A stretch of 64,000 bases of DNA from Candidatus Woesearchaeota archaeon. Lineage in GTDB: Archaea; Nanobdellota; Nanobdellia; Woesearchaeales; JACQSR01. The notes beneath the pieces were generated by a model. It was given only the letters and a program-made list of their open reading frames with translations, ran no database searches and had not been told where the DNA came from. The position numbers and the translations under genes were made by a program. The stretch is taken from contig JACQSR010000014.1 in assembly GCA_016211215.1 (NCBI GenBank), forward strand, positions 14,980-78,979, read 5' to 3'. Positions 3,329-46,158 of the stretch are shown piece by piece. Every line of letters begins with the position of its first letter. Position 1 is the first letter of the stretch.

Positions 3329-4614
3329 GACTGCACCGCAACCAGGCTTATAGTTCCAACGTAGTCGCCTGCCGGAGTTGACGAAGGGATTGTAACTCCG
3401 AACGAGAGCTCCTTCGTGGAAATGCTGCCGTGCACAAGCCCTATCGAGCTCCTAATGGGGCTTGTCGTCAATGTCTGGGGTGCAGCCAGCGATGGGCTAA
3501 ATGAATATTTTACATTTGCAACCGGTATCGATGCAGAGCCCGAGTTCAAGTCTGTTCCGGAGATTTCAGAATCTATAACCACATTGCCTATGTTTCTAAC
3601 CGTTACCTTGTCAGTGGTGCTGATGTTCTGGTCTCCGGGAATGCTGCATGACTGGCCTGAGCTTGAGGAGCAGATTAAAGACGATGCGTCTATCTCAAGT
3701 CCGATTAGGCTCAGGTATTCAAATGCAGCAGTTCTTGAACTGGAAGATTCAGAAGCCGCGGTAATTGTTATTGTATAGTTCCCTGGGTCTTCAAAAAAAT
3801 CTATTCCCACACTCCCTTCAAACTTTGCCGAGGTCGTGTTTATATCCATCGCCTTGGTAAGATTTACTGTCTCTGCACCAAGAATCGCCCTAACTGATGT
3901 TATGTCCGCAACCTGCCCGCTTGAGACAACCGCTGATAAAGGTATAAGCTTTTTGCCCTTAGGTTGTGGTGTAATCTGGATTCCTGATTTAGTTGCATCA
4001 TCATCAGGTATTATGTCAAAGCTGTCAATTGATGGCGATGCCTGGGTAACTGAAACAAGAAGCTGGATTGTGTTCCCCTCAATATATGAGGCGCTCTGAA
4101 GGTTGGGTGCTGCCGGGATGAAGTCCTGGGAGTTGTCTTGGGTATCCTGGGTGCGCTGCAGAGACTGCCCAGAAGAAGCACCAGGATGGGGTGAGCCCTC
4201 AAAAAGTCCAGCATCTATTCCGGCAGCAGACCCCCAACCGACTGCGTCTATGGCGGTACCATTTTCTATCAGCGCAATTCCGGAATCTGTGTTTGCCAGC
4301 GTGATTGCCTCCTCGTAGTCAGCATCAGGCCATGAGGGATTGTCTTTGCTTGAGGAAAAGCCCGCATCTGCAATAAGGAAATAGGATTCCGGCTGGATTA
4401 TTTTTCCTGACGGAATGGTTGCATCTGCCACTGAAGCCTCCGTTCGGATGATCCAGCCGGAGATGTCAACGGGCGCAGAACCGGGATTGTACAGCTCAAC
4501 TGCCTCCCCGCCGGATTCAGTGTTAACAGGGTCATAATAAACCTCGGATATCTGAACATTTGCCGCAACCGCAAGGCTTTGCATGACTAGCATTAAAGCC
4601 AATATTTTTTTCAT
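3325..4614 (-). CDS. Secreted lamin-tail-domain (LTD) surface protein. The ORF track starts at 4632; the signal peptide begins at the Met at 4614
   Basis: MKKILALMLVMQSLAVAAN signal peptide; ISEVYYDP...EAVELYNPGSAPVDISGWII resembles the LTD; Ser/Thr-rich C-terminal half. Confidence 0.55.
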   Translation of the reverse strand: MKKILALMLVMQSLAVAANVQISEVYYDPVNTESGGEAVELYNPGSAPVDISGWIIRTEASVADATIPSGKIIQPESYFLIADAGFSSSKDNPSWPDADYEEAITLANTDSGIALIENGTAIDAVGWGSAAGIDAGLFEGSPHPGASSGQSLQRTQDTQDNSQDFIPAAPNLQSASYIEGNTIQLLVSVTQASPSIDSFDIIPDDDATKSGIQITPQPKGKKLIPLSAVVSSGQVADITSVRAILGAETVNLTKAMDINTTSAKFEGSVGIDFFEDPGNYTITITAASESSSSRTAAFEYLSLIGLEIDASSLICSSSSGQSCSIPGDQNISTTDKVTVRNIGNVVIDSEISGTDLNSGSASIPVANVKYSFSPSLAAPQTLTTSPIRSSIGLVHGSISTKELSFGVTIPSSTPAGDYVGTISLVAVQS

Positions 4615-12946: not shown

Positions 12947-13522
12947 TTACTTGCATGCGCCGTCTTTGCAGGAGCAGGAAACTTCCCTTTCAACAACCTC
13001 TGAACCTGAGCAGAAGTACTCTATAAGGGTTTTTGGGTCCCTGCACTTCTCAATCTCTGCAAACTCGCCAGCGGCATTTCCCCCGATGAGTATTGACCTT
13101 ACCGGCAGGTTTACCCCGTTATCTGATTCAGAGCATGATGGGTTGCATGCCCCTGCATTGCATCCATTGGCGCATCCAACAAGCTTCTGCAATATCGCTT
13201 CCTTGCCGTCCTTCTCGCCGCAATAGTACTCGAGAACCTTGCTGAGGTGGCAGGAATCTTTTACTGAAATACCGCCAAGTGATGTTTCTCCCTGAATGAA
13301 GATGTTTGTTGCGTCTGAATCGGCGCACTGACGCTCCATTACAACAGCGCCGGTAACTGCCTGATTCGGTGCAGGGACTGGGGCCCCGTTCTGCTTCTCT
13401 ATGGTTACATTGCTTCCGAAAGAAAGAATTGCTATCAACCCTACGACAAGCAGGACTGCGGCGATGGCAGCAACGTTAGTGATTTTCCTGTTGCGCTCCC
13501 TGATTTTCTTTTCCGGGTCCAT
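12947..13522 (-). CDS. Membrane-anchored Cys-rich extracellular protein
   Basis: N-terminal TM (VAAIAAVLLVVGLIAIL); 17 Cys in the ectodomain. Confidence 0.4.
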   Translation of the reverse strand: MDPEKKIRERNRKITNVAAIAAVLLVVGLIAILSFGSNVTIEKQNGAPVPAPNQAVTGAVVMERQCADSDATNIFIQGETSLGGISVKDSCHLSKVLEYYCGEKDGKEAILQKLVGCANGCNAGACNPSCSESDNGVNLPVRSILIGGNAAGEFAEIEKCRDPKTLIEYFCSGSEVVEREVSCSCKDGACK

Positions 13523-13567
13523 GGCTTTTTGACATCACATATAGTATATAAAGTTTTCGAGGATTTC

Positions 13568-13729
13568 GGCTCTGTAGAAAGTCTCACTCCGTTCGGGATT
13601 AGCAGCTTCAAATTCCCTGATGCAGTAAGTGATGGCCGACATTTCCCATAAGGAATGCCCTTTGTCAGCTTGATTTTGAGGGCTATTGGAATTTGACTTA
13701 TGCTGCTAACCTACATTTTCTACAGAGCC
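13568..13729. repeat. Structured ~162-nt element, copy 3 (outer IR GGCTCTGTAGAAA / TTTCTACAGAGCC)
   Basis: Perfect 13-bp terminal inverted repeat; conserved internal blocks TTAGCAGCTTC, GACATTTCCC...CCTTTGTCAGC, GCTGCTAACC. Flanked by GGATTTC on both sides. Ends 8 nt from the stop codon of 13737..14525. Confidence 0.7.
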
Positions 13730-13736
13730 CCGGATT

Positions 13737-14525
13737 TCAGAAGAACTGGGCCTCAATCAGGCCTCCAATCAGCACCAAGAACAGGCCTATTGCCAGAAGC
13801 ATCAGTGCGTCAGTGACTATGTGCATGAATTTTCTTGAGAACAATTTTTCCCTGAGAACTGCCTTGGATACAACTCCGCCTACAATTGCAGCGAACAGGT
13901 AGGCTGTCCCCTCTATTACCATGTGGGGGAAGTATGAGAAGTAGGCATGGAACCCTGCGGAAGAGCCTGAGACTATAATCTCACGAGCAGTAAACCCAAA
14001 CGCAATGCCCCAAACAGAGGCATTCCAGACCAGGAACAGCACTGCACCTGCCCCGTAAATGAATGAAAGCAGGAATGCAACAAGGAAAACTATTGAGTTG
14101 TTGATTACAAGGTCGTTAAAGGCGCTGACAGATATGGCTGCCCCAACTATATTTGCCGCCCTAAACTGGGGGAAGAACATGTCACCGATGATTGAAGTGG
14201 GAAATATCAGCCCGATTAGAAGGAAAACCAAGAGGGAGCCGAAGAAAAGGAAAAAGTAAACCTTGATAATGTCATAGTGGTCTTTAAACAGCATCCTCAG
14301 CGAAAACTTCCTTTCCCGTATTTCTATGTTTTCCTCGAGCTGGAGCAGCATACCCAGCGATGGAATTAGGAGAATTGAGATGAATGCTAGGCTCATCAGG
14401 CCGATGTCATTCGGGAATATAAGCCGTGCGCTTGCGATTCCTATAATAGTGTAGATTACTGCGATGTAAAACGCGTGGAATTTTGACTCCACCCATGCAA
14501 CCTTGAAAAACTGCTCGAGAACCAT
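13737..14525 (-). CDS. DUF95/SpoIIM-like integral membrane protein
   Basis: Six or more predicted TM helices; resemblance to SpoIIM/DUF95 topology. Confidence 0.5.
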   Translation of the reverse strand: MVLEQFFKVAWVESKFHAFYIAVIYTIIGIASARLIFPNDIGLMSLAFISILLIPSLGMLLQLEENIEIRERKFSLRMLFKDHYDIIKVYFFLFFGSLLVFLLIGLIFPTSIIGDMFFPQFRAANIVGAAISVSAFNDLVINNSIVFLVAFLLSFIYGAGAVLFLVWNASVWGIAFGFTAREIIVSGSSAGFHAYFSYFPHMVIEGTAYLFAAIVGGVVSKAVLREKLFSRKFMHIVTDALMLLAIGLFLVLIGGLIEAQFF

Positions 14526-16629: not shown

Positions 16630-16733
16630 TGGGCCTGGGAAGATTTGAACTCCCGATCTTCTGCTGTCTGATATCAGGGTTAGCTCCCTGATGTTAGAAG
16701 GCAGACGCCCTATCCAGGCTAGGCTACAGGCCC
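16630..16733 (-). tRNA. tRNA-Arg (anticodon UCU) with a ~29-nt intron at the canonical 37/38 position; CCA not encoded
   Basis: Acceptor GGGCCTG/CAGGCCC, D-arm GCCT-AGCCTGGATA-GGGC, anticodon stem TCTGC/GCAGA with loop CTTCTAA, T-arm GGGAG-TTCAAAT-CTTCC, discriminator A. Confidence 0.75.
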
Positions 16734-26237: not shown

Positions 26238-26699
26238 ATGCAAATCCCCTTTTCTATGTTTTTTGTCCATATCATTCTTCCGTTGATTTTGGGAAAACTC
26301 CTGGGAAGCTACTGGTTTCTGATTGCAGGTTCGCTTATTGTGGATATAGACCACCTGGTTTTGCTGATTAAGAACAGGCACTACAACCTAAGGGAATGCA
26401 TTGATGTACTGAAGCATGAGGAAAAATATGGCGAACGCCTAAGAAGCCCTTACCTGCATTCATTTTTGGGTATGATTGCCACAAGCCTGGCCGTTGGACT
26501 GCTGTTCTCATTGACCGGGGCAATTTACTATGCGATAGGCTATCTGGCGCACCTGATTATTGACTTATTCGACAAGGACGTAATGTACATACTATTCCCC
26601 TCAAAAATAAAATTCAACGGAACTCTGCCGGTGCCGTCGCATGTGGAATTTGCGCTTACGGTTTTCTTTACTGCGTTTATGGTTATACTGTTTTTTTAG
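26238..26699 (+). CDS. Small integral membrane protein (DUF457 / membrane-bound metal-dependent hydrolase-like)
   Basis: Four TM helices; IDHLVLLI and HSFLGM motifs resemble the DUF457 family. Confidence 0.45.
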   Translation: MQIPFSMFFVHIILPLILGKLLGSYWFLIAGSLIVDIDHLVLLIKNRHYNLRECIDVLKHEEKYGERLRSPYLHSFLGMIATSLAVGLLFSLTGAIYYAIGYLAHLIIDLFDKDVMYILFPSKIKFNGTLPVPSHVEFALTVFFTAFMVILFF

Positions 26700-26707
26700 G
26701 GGCATTA

Positions 26708-26869
26708 AGCTTAGTAGAAAACTCCGCTACGCTACGGGTTAGCAGCTTCGAGATTATTCTGTCTTTAGTGATAATTGACATTTCCCGTAGGGAGCGTCCC
26801 CTTTGTCAATGATTATGTAATCGCAAAGAATCTCGACTTTAGGCTGCTAACCTGCTTTTCTACTAAGCT
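26708..26869. repeat. Structured ~162-nt element, copy 1 (outer IR AGCTTAGTAGAAAA / TTTTCTACTAAGCT)
   Basis: Perfect 14-bp terminal IR; conserved TTAGCAGCTTCGAG ... CTCGACTTTAGGCTGCTAA; central TCCC-GTA-GGGA hairpin. Begins 9 nt after the stop of 26238..26699. Confidence 0.7.
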
Positions 26870-29172: not shown

Positions 29173-29259
29173 CAGAAGACACAAATATTTATACAAAATT
29201 GTTGTGTCTTCTGAACATAGTAACTGACATCTTGTATAGAAATTTGTGTCAGTTACTAT
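29173..29259. promoter_or_regulatory. Two adjacent perfect inverted repeats in a divergent promoter region: CAGAAGACACAA-17nt-TTGTGTCTTCTG and ATAGTAACTGACA-17nt-TGTCAGTTACTAT
   Basis: 12- and 13-bp perfect IRs; each 17-nt AT-rich loop contains a TATA-like motif. Lies between divergent starts at 29112 (-) and 29343 (+). Confidence 0.5.
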
Positions 29260-29342: not shown

Positions 29343-30656
29343 ATGGCCTATGATATCATAATAGGGAGAACCCAGGCAGATGCAAACAGGCTGGGAAAAA
29401 GGGGAACCATACTTCTCGGAAGGCAGTACGTGCAGATGGGCCAGACATCATCGCTTTCAAACGACATAATGATGGACGTTACAAGGAGCCATGTTGTTTT
29501 TGTCTGCGGAAAGCGGGGAAGCGGAAAATCTTATACTTTGGGCGTAATTGCGGAAGGGATGGCGAATCTCGAGCCGGATGTGAGCAAGAACCTTGCAGTA
29601 ATAATCCTTGACACTATGGGGATATTCTGGACGATGAGATATGCAAACCTTGCCGAGGCTGACCTTCTGAAGGAATGGGGCATGGAGGGAAAAAGCCTGC
29701 AGGTTGCAATTTTCACGCCAGAGGGAAGCTTCAAGAGCTACAAAGACCGCGGCATTCCAACTGATTTTCCATTCTCGATAAAATCGAATGAGCTAAGCGC
29801 GGTTGACTGGTGCAGGACTTTGGGAGTAAACATCAATGACCCAATAGGCGTTCTGATAGACAGGGCAGTTGAATTCCTTGTTGACAAGGGCGGTGATTTC
29901 GGAATAGATGATATAATAGGGTTTGCGGAGAAAGATGAATTCTCGGAAAAGCACGAGAAAAACGCGGTGATAAACAAGCTTGCAGCTGCAAAGAAGTGGG
30001 GATTGTTCAGCGACAAGGGAACCTCTATACAGAGCCTCGTTAAAGGGGGGCAGGTAACTGTGCTGGACTTGAGCTGCTATGCAATGACGCCCGGTGCAGA
30101 AGGATTAAGGGCGCTTGCCATTGGGCTTATCTCGCAGAAGCTTTTTGTGTCGAGGATGGTTGCAAGAAAGGCGGAGGAAATTGCATCCATTGAAAAAAAT
30201 GTGCATTACGTCGAGGAGGAACTTCCATCTTCGGTTGAGGAGCCTTTGGTGTGGCTGCTTATAGACGAGGCCCACGAATTTCTTCCGAACAGGGGGGAGA
30301 CTGCAGCTTCCAATGCGCTGATAACAATACTGAGAGAGGGAAGGCAGCCCGGAATTTCCCTCGTGCTTGCGTCACAGCAGCCGGGCAAGATACATTCGGA
30401 CGTCATGACGCAGGCCGATATTGTGATTTCGCACAGGATAACCGCAAAGATGGATGTTGATGCGTTGGGAACTTTGATGCAGAGCTATATGAGGGAAGGT
30501 CTTGACAAGCAGATTAACATACTGCCGAAGGTAAGGGGGGCTGCGGTGATATTCGACGACACCAATGAGAGAATGCATTCTATGCGTATAAGGCCAAGGC
30601 TGACATGGCACGGCGGGGAAGCACCTGACGCCATGGGGAATAAAGTTGAGCTGTAG
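29343..30656 (+). CDS. HerA/FtsK-like P-loop ATPase (DUF87 family)
   Basis: Walker A GKRGSGKS, Walker B LLIDEAHEF, short N-terminal barrel-like region; 437 aa. Confidence 0.65.
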   Translation: MAYDIIIGRTQADANRLGKRGTILLGRQYVQMGQTSSLSNDIMMDVTRSHVVFVCGKRGSGKSYTLGVIAEGMANLEPDVSKNLAVIILDTMGIFWTMRYANLAEADLLKEWGMEGKSLQVAIFTPEGSFKSYKDRGIPTDFPFSIKSNELSAVDWCRTLGVNINDPIGVLIDRAVEFLVDKGGDFGIDDIIGFAEKDEFSEKHEKNAVINKLAAAKKWGLFSDKGTSIQSLVKGGQVTVLDLSCYAMTPGAEGLRALAIGLISQKLFVSRMVARKAEEIASIEKNVHYVEEELPSSVEEPLVWLLIDEAHEFLPNRGETAASNALITILREGRQPGISLVLASQQPGKIHSDVMTQADIVISHRITAKMDVDALGTLMQSYMREGLDKQINILPKVRGAAVIFDDTNERMHSMRIRPRLTWHGGEAPDAMGNKVEL

Positions 30657-30820
30657 GGCTCTGTCCTGAATCTCGCTTACGCTCGCCTTTAGCAGCTTCT
30701 CGCTTGATATCCTACTCGCCATTGCTGACATTCTCCGAAGGAGCCAACCCTCTTGTCAGCTATGTGCAGAAAGAAAAGAAGCTCGACTTTAGGCTGCTAA
30801 AGGACTTTCAGGACAGAGCC
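30657..30820. repeat. Structured ~164-nt element, copy 2 (outer IR GGCTCTGTCCTGAA / TTCAGGACAGAGCC)
   Basis: Perfect 14-bp terminal IR; conserved TTTAGCAGCTTC ... CTCGACTTTAGGCTGCTAAAGG; central CTCC-GAA-GGAG hairpin. Starts 1 nt after the TAG stop of the DUF87 ATPase. Flanks AGCTGTAG / AGTTGTAG. Confidence 0.7.
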
Positions 30821-30865
30821 GAGTTGTAGGAAAAGAATTTAAACATAGTTCCATTACCCTGTTGC

Positions 30866-31156
30866 ATGCCTTTCAGCAAGAGTTTTCCGCGGGCAGTTAA
30901 GGGTAGCATGTACCCGAAATGGGAAGATGTAGCTCTAACCGAAGAAGAGGAAAGAGAGGTTGAAAAGCTCTGCAGGGTGGAAAACATAAGGCTGATGAAG
31001 GAGTGCATCGAGGATGCAAAGCACATCATTGACGCGATGGAGCTGAAAAGGTTCCAGACAAACCTGGTTGAAGTCGGAATTGCGCTTTTTGAAAAGAGGG
31101 CTTCGCATTCAGTTTACTGGAAAGAAAACAGGGCGAAGGATAAATTTTCCAAGTGA
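30866..31156 (+). CDS. Hypothetical small protein
   Basis: 96-aa ORF; charged, helical; the start may be an internal Met. Confidence 0.3.
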   Translation: MPFSKSFPRAVKGSMYPKWEDVALTEEEEREVEKLCRVENIRLMKECIEDAKHIIDAMELKRFQTNLVEVGIALFEKRASHSVYWKENRAKDKFSK

Positions 31157-45710: not shown

Positions 45711-45887
45711 ATAAGTGTCCCCTGCAGTTCCGAGAAATGTTATTGATGAAATTTTGGCCCCCGAGAGGCGAGTATTCTGCGAAGTTAATAAATTTTTTGA
45801 TTTGGGTTGCCCATACCCTCACTTGTAAACTGATGTAAAGCGTGTATTAAAGCAACCTTTATAAGGCATTATTTACTCTACCATACC

Positions 45888-46158
45888 GCAGGCTAGGTTG
45901 GGAAGATAGCACTCTCCTGTCACTCCAGACGTGCTTAGGGAGGACTGAATGCCGGAATGAGGGTGCATCAGATTGCATTGGTCTTGGCCTGGACGAAGAC
46001 GCTTTGTCCTGCTGGGCTGATGCTTCTGGGAAACGTGTCAGGTCAGGAATGAAGCAGCACTAACCTTTTGCATTGGTGTCTTCAGGGTTGCAGAGCCGAG
46101 GAAAGGACAAGGCAAACCATTGCAGTTTGGTGTATTCGACTTCCGGATGCCTGCACTT
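45888..46158 (+). ncRNA. Signal recognition particle (7S) RNA candidate
   Basis: Helix-8 signature GUCAGGUCAGGAAUGAAGCAGCAC (46036-46060); Alu-domain-like CCUGUCACUCCAGAC; 5' GCAGGC pairs with 3' GCCUGC; followed by an oligo-T (TTTTATTT) terminator; TATA CTTTATAAGG about 25 nt upstream. Confidence 0.55.

What the first reader, a model, noticed from the sequence alone, without database searches (positions are those of the whole stretch)
30657..30820. Structured elements sit 1-9 nt after stop codons with TSD-like flanks, and two copies bracket a 4-kb extracytoplasmic-folding/ATPase segment
Copy 2 starts immediately after the TAG of the DUF87 ATPase, and its flanks AGCTGTAG / AGTTGTAG form a 7/8 direct repeat that includes the stop codon. 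Copy 3 is flanked by GGATTTC on both sides and ends 8 nt from the stop of the SpoIIM-like gene. Copy 1 begins 9 nt after the stop of 26238..26699. So each copy is either a terminator-embedded 3'-UTR structure or a mobile hairpin element that targets sites just after a stop codon and creates a short target duplication. Copies 1 and 2 are in direct orientation about 3.95 kb apart. They enclose exactly three genes: the DsbA-like protein, the parvulin-Trx lipoprotein and the HerA-like ATPase.
Basis: partly seen in the sequence, partly recalled or inferred. Interest (0 to 1): 0.6.

Follow-up and report, generated by a model that had tools for sequence, protein, structure and literature searches.

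The report
Hairpin mini-transposon inserted beside archaeal promoters
The three structured elements are copies of a small non-coding mobile element (a MITE) of Woesearchaeota, moved by an IS903-like transposase; it nearly always lands exactly six bases upstream of a gene's TATA box, so the kind of element is ordinary but its landing-site precision is unusual.

Summary
Three ~162-164-nt rod-like hairpin elements lie on the + strand at 26708-26869, 30657-30820 and 13568-13729.

They are MITEs, not a dedicated 3'-UTR structure. A covariance model finds about 47 copies in about 27 Woesearchaeota/Nanoarchaeia genomes. Of 43 tested copies, 26 have perfect 9-bp target duplications and GGC...GCC ends.

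I found the autonomous partner, a 901-bp insertion sequence with the same terminal repeats, 9-bp duplications and an IS5-family DDE transposase related to IS102/IS903. Orthologous loci in relatives (67-84% protein identity) keep the gene order but lack all three window copies. The 4-kb "bracketed" segment is therefore ancestral synteny, not a composite transposon.

Closeness to stop codons is a by-product of tight gene packing. The real regularity is the target N9-aAAAnn-TTTAWAWA: the duplication ends exactly 6 nt from a TATA box in 21 of 36 copies, against 1.5 expected, and in 5 of 7 insertions of the IS itself.

Two things remain unexplained. The internal core is more conserved than the terminal repeats and is exchanged among different terminal repeats, and the whole hairpin covaries. 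No test of RNA function was possible.

Verdict: a new MITE/IS family of a known kind, with unusually precise promoter-edge insertion.

The parts
30657..30820 (+). MITE copy 2 (164 bp), with ends GGCTCTGTCCTGAA...TTCAGGACAGAGCC. This is the finding's own interval.
   Evidence: Sequence; covariance model 174 bits; fold -66.4 kcal/mol, z = -5.5.
30648..30656 (+). Left target-site duplication of copy 2, GAGCTGTAG. It holds the last two sense codons and the TAG stop of the DUF87/HerA-like gene, so the gene stays intact.
   Evidence: the orthologous empty site is shown.
30821..30829 (+). Right target-site duplication of copy 2, GAGTTGTAG (8/9 match to the left copy).
30830..30843 (+). BRE-like gaaaag plus TATA-like aatttaaa of the downstream 96-aa gene (ATG at 30866). 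It starts immediately after the duplication. The orthologous empty site reads gaaaag-ATTATAAA.
13568..13729 (+). MITE copy 3 (162 bp), with ends GGCTCTGTAGAAAG...TTTTCTACAGAGCC. These match the left terminal repeat of the autonomous IS at both ends. The copy is antisense to both neighbouring genes.
   Evidence: (144 bits).
13559..13567 (+). Left duplication of copy 3, GAGGATTTC.
13730..13738 (+). Right duplication of copy 3, CCGGATTTC (7/9). It overlaps the stop codon (13737-13739) of the SpoIIM-like gene on the minus strand.
13545..13558 (-). Promoter of the minus-strand gene 12947-13522. Read on the minus strand it is gaaaac + TTTATATA, with the TATA box exactly 6 nt from the duplication.
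26708..26869 (+). MITE copy 1 (about 162 bp), with ends AGCTTAGTAGAAAA...TTTTCTACTAAGCT. These match the right terminal repeat of the autonomous IS at both ends. The duplication has decayed. The copy lies between convergent genes, and its 3' arm holds the stop codon (26863-26865) of the 318-aa gene.
   Evidence: (171.6 bits).

Best explanation
The three elements are copies of a non-autonomous DNA transposon (a MITE) that is widespread in Woesearchaeota/Nanoarchaeia.

Anatomy. Each copy has GGC...GCC termini and terminal inverted repeats of about 14-19 bp. These match the ends of a 901-905-bp insertion sequence that encodes an IS5-family (IS903-like) DDE transposase. Between the repeats sits a non-coding palindromic core of about 130 nt that is unrelated to the interior of the IS.

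Mobilisation (inferred). The transposase, supplied in trans, joins the element to target DNA cut with a 9-bp stagger, which produces the 9-bp duplication.

Target choice. It is not random. The 9-bp target lies directly upstream of an A-rich hexamer plus an A/T octamer (N9-aAAAnn-TTTAWAWA), which is the upstream edge of an archaeal BRE/TATA promoter. The element can lie in either orientation. In these very compact genomes that spot is also just after the previous gene's stop codon, and the duplication regenerates the stop codon, so neither gene nor promoter is damaged.

What is shown: mobility (TSDs and empty sites), the partner IS, the transposase family, and the position of the target.

What is inferred: trans-mobilisation by this transposase; that target choice is made by the transposase, either by sequence read-out resembling the IS903 motif WTTYA-N9-TRAAW or by recognising the promoter complex; and any effect of the hairpin on transcripts.
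For: Family size: the covariance model finds 47 copies of mostly 161-167 nt in about 27 species-level genomes.

Duplications: 26 of 43 copies have perfect 9-bp TSDs, against 0.25% of random placements. The modal TSD is 9 bp with GGC/GCC ends.

Partner IS: it is 901 bp. Its left repeat is GGCTCTGTAGAAAAT, as in copy 3; its right repeat is GGCTTAGTAGAAAAA, as in copy 1. It has perfect 9-bp TSDs CAAGCAGGG (L119) and TATTTTACG (L185). One copy directly abuts a MITE in a Nanoarchaeia MAG (L107).

Transposase: Pfam DDE_Tnp_1, E = 2.4e-13. Its best NCBIfam model is NF033579 (IS5), which is also the best model for IS102. BLASTP against the IS102 transposase aligns over most of both proteins, E = 4e-12.

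Terminal repeat: the IS102 repeat GGCTTTGTTGAATAAATC matches one MITE sub-type, GGCTGTGTTGAAA, at 12 of the first 13 positions.

Empty sites: relatives at 67-84% protein identity keep the gene order but lack the element at all three window positions.

Target: a TATA box lies exactly 6 nt beyond the TSD in 21 of 36 copies, against 1.5 expected from local shifts (0 of 200,000 simulations). A conservative binomial bound gives 1e-12. The same spacing holds at 5 of 7 IS insertion sites.

Published IS903 target motif: WTTYA-N9-TRAAW, with a 9-bp TSD (PMC2577343 Table 1).
Against: No transposase gene lies in the 64-kb window or in the fetched MITE-bearing loci, apart from the truncated start in L107. 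Trans-mobilisation in this particular genome is therefore inferred.

The transposase scores 130.9 bits against NF033579, just below the curated cut-off of 140.

The internal core (for example TTAGCAGCTTC, identical in 46 of 47 copies) is more conserved than the terminal repeats. An asymmetric mini-hairpin on one arm covaries. A plain selfish MITE does not predict either feature.

Some copies keep the core but lack the terminal repeats and TSDs (L024, L034, L016).

Part of the promoter adjacency could reflect purifying selection rather than targeting.
Confidence: 0.9

Rival explanations
1. The element is primarily a functional structured RNA, either a ncRNA gene family or a 3'-UTR/terminator-insulator structure. 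On this reading its mobility is secondary, or it is a domesticated MITE whose core has been kept by the host.
For: Fold z-scores are -5.5 and -6.7. On 47 copies, 92.4% of cells are paired and 36 of 48 pairs show changes on both sides; sliding the partner columns drops pairing to about 31-50%. This includes interior helices that are not terminal repeats. The one-armed mini-hairpin covaries (CUAGC/GCUAG, CUUGC/GCAAG, UUCGC/GCGAA). The core is more conserved than the terminal repeats and occurs with at least 8 terminal-repeat types, and also without them.
Against: Rfam gives no match at the gathering threshold or at E up to 10. There is no consistent orientation relative to neighbouring genes or promoters. 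No internal promoter is evident. G-U versus A-C mismatches show no strand bias in the terminal stem (10 versus 12). The element is absent from the orthologous sites of close relatives, so it is not needed for expression of those genes. A palindrome maintained at the DNA level would covary in the same way.
Confidence: 0.2
2. Promoter-edge location is a product of survivorship alone. On this reading insertion is essentially random, and only insertions in the few harmless bases between a stop codon and the next BRE are retained.
For: Spacers are very short: the orthologous empty site has 12 nt between stop and TATA. About a third of copies have a stop codon inside or next to the TSD. Insertions into genes would be purged.
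Against: Because the TSD restores both flanks, at least 10 positions per site are harmless even with no free spacer. Yet 21 of 36 copies sit at one exact offset (binomial bound 1e-12; local-shift expectation 1.5). By crude ORF calls, copies with 45-250 nt free on the other side still sit 33-40 nt from the downstream start codon (L050, L082, L069, L059). IS copies show the same offset. IS903 relatives are known to read the bases flanking the 9-bp target.
Confidence: 0.15
3. Copies 1 and 2 act as the ends of a composite transposon that moves the 4-kb segment (318-aa gene, SurA/rotamase gene, HerA-like ATPase).
For: Two copies in direct orientation, 3948 bp apart, enclose exactly three genes.
Against: The same genes lie in the same order between DnaG (followed by YdjM in all relatives but L128/L129) and the 96-aa gene in four relatives that have no element at either boundary. 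The outer flanks (GGGGCATTA versus GAGTTGTAG) share no duplication, and copy 2 carries its own TSD. Composite transposons normally need the outer ends in the appropriate inverted configuration.
Confidence: 0.02
4. The elements are mobilised by a different transposase family, such as IS1 (ends GGnnnTG, 8-9-bp TSD) or IS4. On this reading the match to the IS5/IS903-like IS is coincidental.
For: GGCTCTG fits the IS1 end formula GGnnnTG (from my own recollection of the ISfinder family table). A 9-bp TSD is also typical of IS1, IS10 and IS50.
Against: Other sub-types end in GGCTTCA, GGCAGCG or GGCTACA, which breaks the GGnnnTG rule. An IS with 15-19 nt identical to the MITE ends and with 9-bp TSDs was recovered, and it encodes an IS5-family protein.
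Confidence: 0.03

Closest known systems
IS903 / IS102 (IS5 family, IS903 group) and its derivatives
   Same: 9-bp target duplication and GGC termini. The terminal repeat resembles one MITE sub-type (GGCTTTGTTGAAT versus GGCTGTGTTGAAA). Both transposases have NF033579 as best model, and they align pairwise at E = 4e-12. IS903 has a known preference for A/T-rich bases flanking the 9-bp target (WTTYA-N9-TRAAW).
   Different: The host is archaeal (Woesearchaeota). Transposase identity is only 22%, and the score falls below the curated family cut-off. The transposase ORF runs through the right terminal repeat without a stop codon. The target signature is one-sided and extends over a TATA box 6-14 nt from the duplication, rather than forming a short palindrome.
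Hairpin-forming bacterial MITEs (Correia/NEMIS of Neisseria, ERIC, RUP)
   Same: Intergenic palindromic elements of 100-170 bp, non-coding, multicopy, with terminal repeats and TSDs. They are often next to promoters and able to fold in transcripts (review PMC10969869).
   Different: Correia elements carry their own promoters and IHF sites and duplicate TA. Here no internal promoter is evident, the TSD is 9 bp, the element sits upstream of (not within) the promoter, and the core is exchanged among different terminal repeats.
Archaeal MITEs already described (Sulfolobus SM1-4, Haloquadratum, and others) and the MITE census that reports a Woesearchaea genome with 105 MITEs per Mb
   Same: Non-autonomous IS derivatives in archaea. 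High MITE density in a Woesearchaeal genome is on record (PMC11602168; PMC10969869).
   Different: In the passages I read, those reports give no family anatomy, partner IS or target rule for Woesearchaeota. I did not check whether this family is in their supplementary sequence files.
Promoter-complex-guided integration in eukaryotes (Ty3 at Pol III start sites, Dictyostelium TRE5-A upstream of tRNA genes). This is a comparison of how it works only, from my own knowledge.
   Same: Insertion at a fixed distance from a TBP-dependent promoter element, in a position harmless to the host.
   Different: Those are retroelements tethered by protein-protein contacts with TFIIIB. Here the element is a DDE DNA transposon, and there is no evidence yet that TBP/TFB rather than plain sequence is recognised.

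Membership tests
MITE (miniature inverted-repeat transposable element) | Short (under about 300 bp) with no coding capacity | tested here: met
   Most copies are 161-167 bp (two reach 176 and 179). Only spurious ORFs overlap them.
MITE (miniature inverted-repeat transposable element) | Terminal inverted repeats | tested here: met
   The 13-bp terminal helix is paired in 97% of cells, and the termini are GGC...GCC.
MITE (miniature inverted-repeat transposable element) | Target-site duplication of fixed length | tested here: met
   The mode is 9 bp. 26 of 43 copies are perfect, against 5 of 2000 random placements.
MITE (miniature inverted-repeat transposable element) | Multicopy, with insertion polymorphism (empty sites) | tested here: met
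   3 copies in the window, at least 8 in MAG DATDXC01 and 47 overall. All three window positions are empty in relatives.
MITE (miniature inverted-repeat transposable element) | Ends shared with an autonomous element that encodes a transposase | tested here: met
   A 901-905-bp IS shares 15-19 nt with the MITE ends, has the same TSD length, and lies adjacent to a MITE in L107.
MITE (miniature inverted-repeat transposable element) | Actual mobilisation in trans by that transposase | not testable with these tools
   This needs a transposition assay. No transposase gene was found in the window.
IS5 family, IS903 group (for the partner IS) | DDE_Tnp_1 transposase with the YREK signature | tested here: met
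   PF01609 at E = 2.4e-13. The motif Y-x2-R-x3-E-x6-K is visible in YWQRNIVESLFSALKR.
IS5 family, IS903 group (for the partner IS) | Passes the curated NCBIfam IS5 model that IS102/IS903 passes | tested here: inconclusive
   NF033579 is the best model at 130.9 bits against a cut-off of 140. IS102 scores 352 bits on the same model.
IS5 family, IS903 group (for the partner IS) | 9-bp TSD and GGC termini (group definition recalled from the ISfinder table) | tested here: met
   TSDs CAAGCAGGG, TATTTTACG and CGAGACATG; ends GGCTCTG...GCC. The IS102 ends were read directly.
IS5 family, IS903 group (for the partner IS) | Target preference for A/T-rich bases flanking the 9-bp target (WTTYA-N9-TRAAW) | tested here: inconclusive
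   One flank shows aAAAnn (A in 26 of 28 copies at position +4). The other flank shows no pattern. Motif taken from PMC2577343.
Any Rfam RNA family | Match to a curated covariance model | tested here: not met
   No hit at the gathering threshold in the window. Only chance-level hits at E up to 10 on 30600-30880.
Composite transposon (copies 1 and 2 plus the 4-kb segment) | A common TSD outside the pair, and a segment that is absent or relocated in relatives | tested here: not met
   The outer flanks differ, and the segment is syntenic in L125-L129 without elements.
Intrinsic terminator / 3'-UTR cis element | Transcript 3' ends or processing inside the element, with orientation tied to the upstream gene | not testable with these tools
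   No transcript data are available. Orientation is not tied to neighbours: copy 3 is antisense to both, and the family splits 15 versus 11.

The most novel reading that the evidence does not exclude
The IS903-like transposase does not simply read DNA sequence. It recognises the bent, TBP/TFB-bound archaeal promoter (or contacts TFB) and inserts at a fixed 6-15 bp upstream of the TATA box. That would be the first case in an archaeon of a DNA transposon guided by the transcription pre-initiation complex. In addition, the conserved palindromic core, which is swapped among unrelated terminal repeats, would be a selected module. It might bring the two close ends together by cruciform extrusion, or insulate the promoter from upstream read-through.
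Probability: 0.2. Interest if true: 0.75.

Novelty: new variant of a known kind. Interest (0 to 1): 0.45.

Why it matters
As a kind of object this is ordinary: a MITE with its IS5-family partner. Three points make it useful.

1. It explains recurrent contig breaks and "structured intergenic RNAs" in Woesearchaeota MAGs. It also gives a covariance model and end sequences for masking or annotating them.

2. The single-nucleotide regularity of insertion (N9, then 6 nt, then TATA) is a rare example of a prokaryotic transposon with a promoter-edge safe haven. It can be tested with purified transposase on naked versus TBP/TFB-bound DNA. It also provides independent markers of promoter positions in uncultivated DPANN archaea.

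3. A core that is more conserved than the terminal repeats, and is exchanged among them, runs against the usual picture of MITE evolution. It may show how very short elements solve the problem of synapsing two ends only about 160 bp apart.

Tried and rejected
- Rfam at the gathering threshold on the window and at E up to 10 on the element: nothing.
- ARAGORN: no tRNA-like element.
- By-eye tests of the conserved internal loop (GCAGC-UUC-GA / GACCUUAGG-CUGC) against K-turn and H/ACA-pocket rules: the non-bulged strand lacks the required GA next to the C-stem and the loop is too small. Rejected by inspection only.
- IS1 affiliation from the end formula GGnnnTG: rejected because other sub-types break the formula.
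- tblastn of the IS102 transposase, and later of the archaeal transposase, against the window and all loci: only the 18-aa start in L107 and the two full IS copies.
- Looking for shared sequence between the MITE interior and the IS interior: only the 13-17-nt ends match.
- G-U versus A-C mismatch counts to decide the functional strand: overall 111 versus 53, but driven by two conserved positions; the terminal stem gives 10 versus 12. Inconclusive.
- Viral contigs: 49 pattern matches, none confirmed by the covariance model.
- Exact-protein look-up of the HerA-like gene for strain-level polymorphism: only same-strain contigs, which break 29 nt into the element.
- Reciprocal empty site for the related copy L083: its flanks are not in the window.
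- A strict RAAA half-site regex is enriched (16 of 36 versus 4.5 expected) but is weaker than the TATA-offset statistic.
- ORF-based gap estimates are crude (ATG-only starts) and were used only qualitatively.

Full report
**What is there**

The window comes from a Candidatus Woesearchaeota archaeon. Its proteins carry that name in public sources, and it holds an archaeal SRP RNA and an intron-containing tRNA.

Three elements of about 162-164 nt lie on the + strand at about 26708-26869, 30657-30820 and 13568-13729. Each folds into a nearly continuous rod-like hairpin far more stable than shuffled sequence: -61 and -66 kcal/mol, z = -6.7 and -5.5. A covariance model built from the three copies finds only these three in the window with filters off. 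Rfam and ARAGORN find nothing at these places.

**It is a family**

One scan of species-representative genomes with the pattern TTAGCAGCTTC-N80-110-GCTGCTAA returned 115 stretches. The covariance model confirmed about 47 copies, most full-length at 161-167 nt, in about 27 Woesearchaeota/Nanoarchaeia assemblies. Some of these assemblies are labelled otherwise. Bacterial and viral pattern matches were all rejected by the model.

**It is mobile**

- With flanks printed, almost every copy is bounded by a direct repeat.
- Formally, 26 of 43 copies have a perfect 9/9 repeat and 7 more have 8/9. Only 5 of 2000 random 163-bp placements reach 9/9.
- The modal repeat is 9 bp, with element ends GGC...GCC.
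- In the window, copy 2 has GAGCTGTAG/GAGTTGTAG and copy 3 has GAGGATTTC/CCGGATTTC. Copy 1's repeat has decayed.
- Orthologous loci of relatives keep the gene order DnaG - 318-aa homologue - SurA_N/rotamase - DUF87/HerA - 96-aa gene, with YdjM after DnaG in all but L128/L129. These relatives have HerA-like proteins 81, 78 and 67% identical and a SpoIIM-like protein 84% identical.
- Those loci lack the element at all three positions: 42 nt from the HerA stop to the next ATG, 0 nt between YdjM and the convergent gene, and 38 nt after SpoIIM. The covariance model finds no copy in them.
- The downstream promoter is recognisably the same in the filled and empty alleles: gaaaag-AATTTAAA versus gaaaag-ATTATAAA.
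- Short-read assemblies of the same strain break 29 nt into the element, as expected for a repeat.

**The autonomous partner**

In a Nanoarchaeia MAG, a MITE copy directly abuts another element end, GGCTCTGTAGAAAATGTCGAAAG, followed by the start of an ORF at the contig edge. Scanning metagenome contigs for that 23-mer gave five loci, two of which hold the complete element.

- It is 901 bp long. Its left repeat is GGCTCTGTAGAAAAT and its right repeat is GGCTTAGTAGAAAAA.
- It has a perfect 9-bp duplication (CAAGCAGGG).
- It encodes one ORF of about 272 aa that runs through the right repeat without a stop codon.
- The left-repeat type is found at both ends of window copy 3, and the right-repeat type at both ends of window copy 1.
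- The protein has a DDE_Tnp_1 domain.
- Its best NCBIfam model is NF033579 (IS5 family), at 130.9 bits against a cut-off of 140. The same model is the best for the IS102/IS903-type transposase of pSC101.
- It aligns with that protein over most of both sequences (22% identity, E = 4e-12).
- The IS102 repeat GGCTTTGTTGAATAAATC, read from pSC101, matches the MITE sub-type GGCTGTGTTGAAA at 12 of 13 positions.
- A 9-bp duplication and GGC ends are, from my recollection of the ISfinder table, the hallmarks of the IS903 group. The 9-bp TSD is confirmed in PMC2577343.
- The transposase has 463 homologue clusters at E up to 1e-20. Most lie on 1-2-kb contigs and have variable C-termini. Further complete copies of 901-905 bp show the same ends and 9-bp duplications.
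- Only the terminal 13-19 nt are shared between MITE and IS. The MITE interior is unrelated to the IS interior.

**Where it lands**

Stop-codon proximity is not the rule: about a third of copies abut a stop codon. The rule is the promoter.

- Reading outward from the duplication, an archaeal TATA-like octamer begins exactly 6 nt away in 21 of 36 copies with good TSDs, and 5-9 nt away in 28 of 36.
- Shifting each site by up to 40 nt predicts 1.5 copies at exactly 6 nt. None of 200,000 simulations came near the observed 21; the highest reached 10.
- The oriented consensus is N9-aAAAnn-TTTAWAWA. The A-rich hexamer was not used for orientation, yet it is A in 26 of 28 copies at its fourth position.
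- The promoter can lie at either end of the element (15, 11, 2 at both, 8 at neither).
- The duplication restores both flanks, so at least 10 insertion positions would be harmless at every site. The concentration at one offset therefore has a binomial bound of about 1e-12. This argues for target choice rather than survival alone.
- The IS itself shows the same spacing at 5 of 7 independent sites.
- IS903 is known to prefer WTTYA-N9-TRAAW. An inherited taste for an A-rich flank, which the archaeal BRE supplies, is therefore the simplest mechanism. Recognition of the TBP/TFB-bent promoter is not excluded.
- Window copies 2 and 3 both fit the pattern, with gaaaag-AATTTAAA and gaaaac-TTTATATA at 6 nt. 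Copy 1, between convergent genes, does not.

**What remains odd**

- The hairpin covaries along its whole length. 92.4% of cells are paired, 36 of 48 pairs show changes on both sides, and pairing falls to about 31-50% when partner columns are slid.
- A mini-hairpin present on the 5' arm only also covaries.
- The core blocks TTAGCAGCTTC, GACCTTAGGCTGCTAA and the apical GAC-AUUCCCC-GUAA-GGGAC-AU-CCCCCUU-GUC are more conserved than the terminal repeats.
- The family is modular. In one MAG, nearly identical cores (95-96%) carry different terminal stems (65% identity). Conversely, identical terminal stems carry cores only about 50% alike. A copy in a relative is a mosaic of window copies 2 and 3.
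- A few loci keep the core with other terminal repeats or none, and without TSDs.
- Mismatch statistics do not identify a functional strand.
- I infer, without a test, that the palindrome is maintained either because it helps two ends only about 160 bp apart to synapse (for example by cruciform extrusion) or by intra-palindrome conversion. Both ends of a given copy being of one repeat type fits such symmetrisation. A host-level RNA role, such as a read-through barrier in front of the promoter, is possible but unsupported.

**The 4-kb segment**

Copies 1 and 2 do not define a unit. The enclosed genes are in the same order in relatives without the elements, the pair has no common outer duplication, and copy 2 has its own.

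**Comparison and verdict**

MITEs are well known in bacteria and some archaea. A census has already noted a Woesearchaeal genome with 105 MITEs per Mb. I found no description of this family, its partner IS or its target rule, but the library searched is incomplete.

The finding is therefore a real, correctly observed feature whose "mobile hairpin" reading is right. It is a new MITE/IS pair of the IS5 (IS903-like) kind. Its distinguishing traits are single-nucleotide placement at the upstream edge of archaeal promoters and a conserved, exchangeable structured core.

Noticed in passing
window 16630-16733 (-): Rfam calls a 104-nt tRNA (54.7 bits), presumably intron-containing, which ARAGORN does not report at all.
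   Followed up: no
window 45886-46156 (+): Archaeal SRP RNA (105 bits). At 271 nt it is shorter than the 317-position model.
   Followed up: no
window 29219-29259: A perfect 10-bp inverted repeat, GTAACTGACA...TGTCAGTTAC, lies in the AT-rich divergent spacer between the SurA-like gene and the HerA-like gene. It was also picked up as a weak partial hit of the covariance model (8.8 bits). It could be an operator or another hairpin.
   Followed up: no
L119 (rc) 3456-4356; L120 10-910; L185 1418-2318: The transposase ORF of the partner IS has no stop codon inside the element. It reads through the right terminal repeat (…SELFLLS) into flanking DNA, so each copy has a different C-terminal tail. Homologue lengths range from 256 to 309 aa.
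   Followed up: partly
L107 5895-6205: A MITE copy (GTCCC sub-type, TSD CTTTTAATT) is inserted with 0 nt of spacing against the left end of an IS copy, and the contig ends inside the IS. Repeats of this family fragment MAG assemblies. L009/L085 and L048 show contig ends inside copies, and the Logan contigs L122-L124 end 29 nt into copy 2.
   Followed up: partly
L024 1737-1855; L034 5542-5665; L016 1815-1938; L089 6359-6504; L009 3048-3215: These are versions of the element that keep the conserved core but lack the GGC terminal repeats, the 5' bulge and any visible TSD, or that carry a quite different terminal stem (AGAACCTATCTC). In L034 a TATA-like box lies about 18 nt upstream of the core. 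The core may exist independently of the IS903-like ends.
   Followed up: partly
L125 3070-3567 versus L126 2926-3567; L127 2524-3092; L128 7938-9263: The region orthologous to the window is a hotspot for other insertions in relatives: an HNH endonuclease ORF after YdjM, a PemK toxin plus DUF7557 pair between DnaG and YdjM, and an IS66-family transposase downstream of the 100-aa gene.
   Followed up: no
L083 1363-1525: A copy in a related MAG (DATDYF01) is 84% identical to window copy 2 overall, but a 41-nt apical stretch is 97.6% identical to window copy 3. This points to recombination between sub-families.
   Followed up: partly
L181 1430-2331 versus L182: The same IS right junction is joined to two different left flanks in two assemblies. 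In L184 the two flanks do not form a TSD, yet each has a TATA-like box at 6 nt. This suggests IS-mediated rearrangement or chimeric assembly.
   Followed up: no
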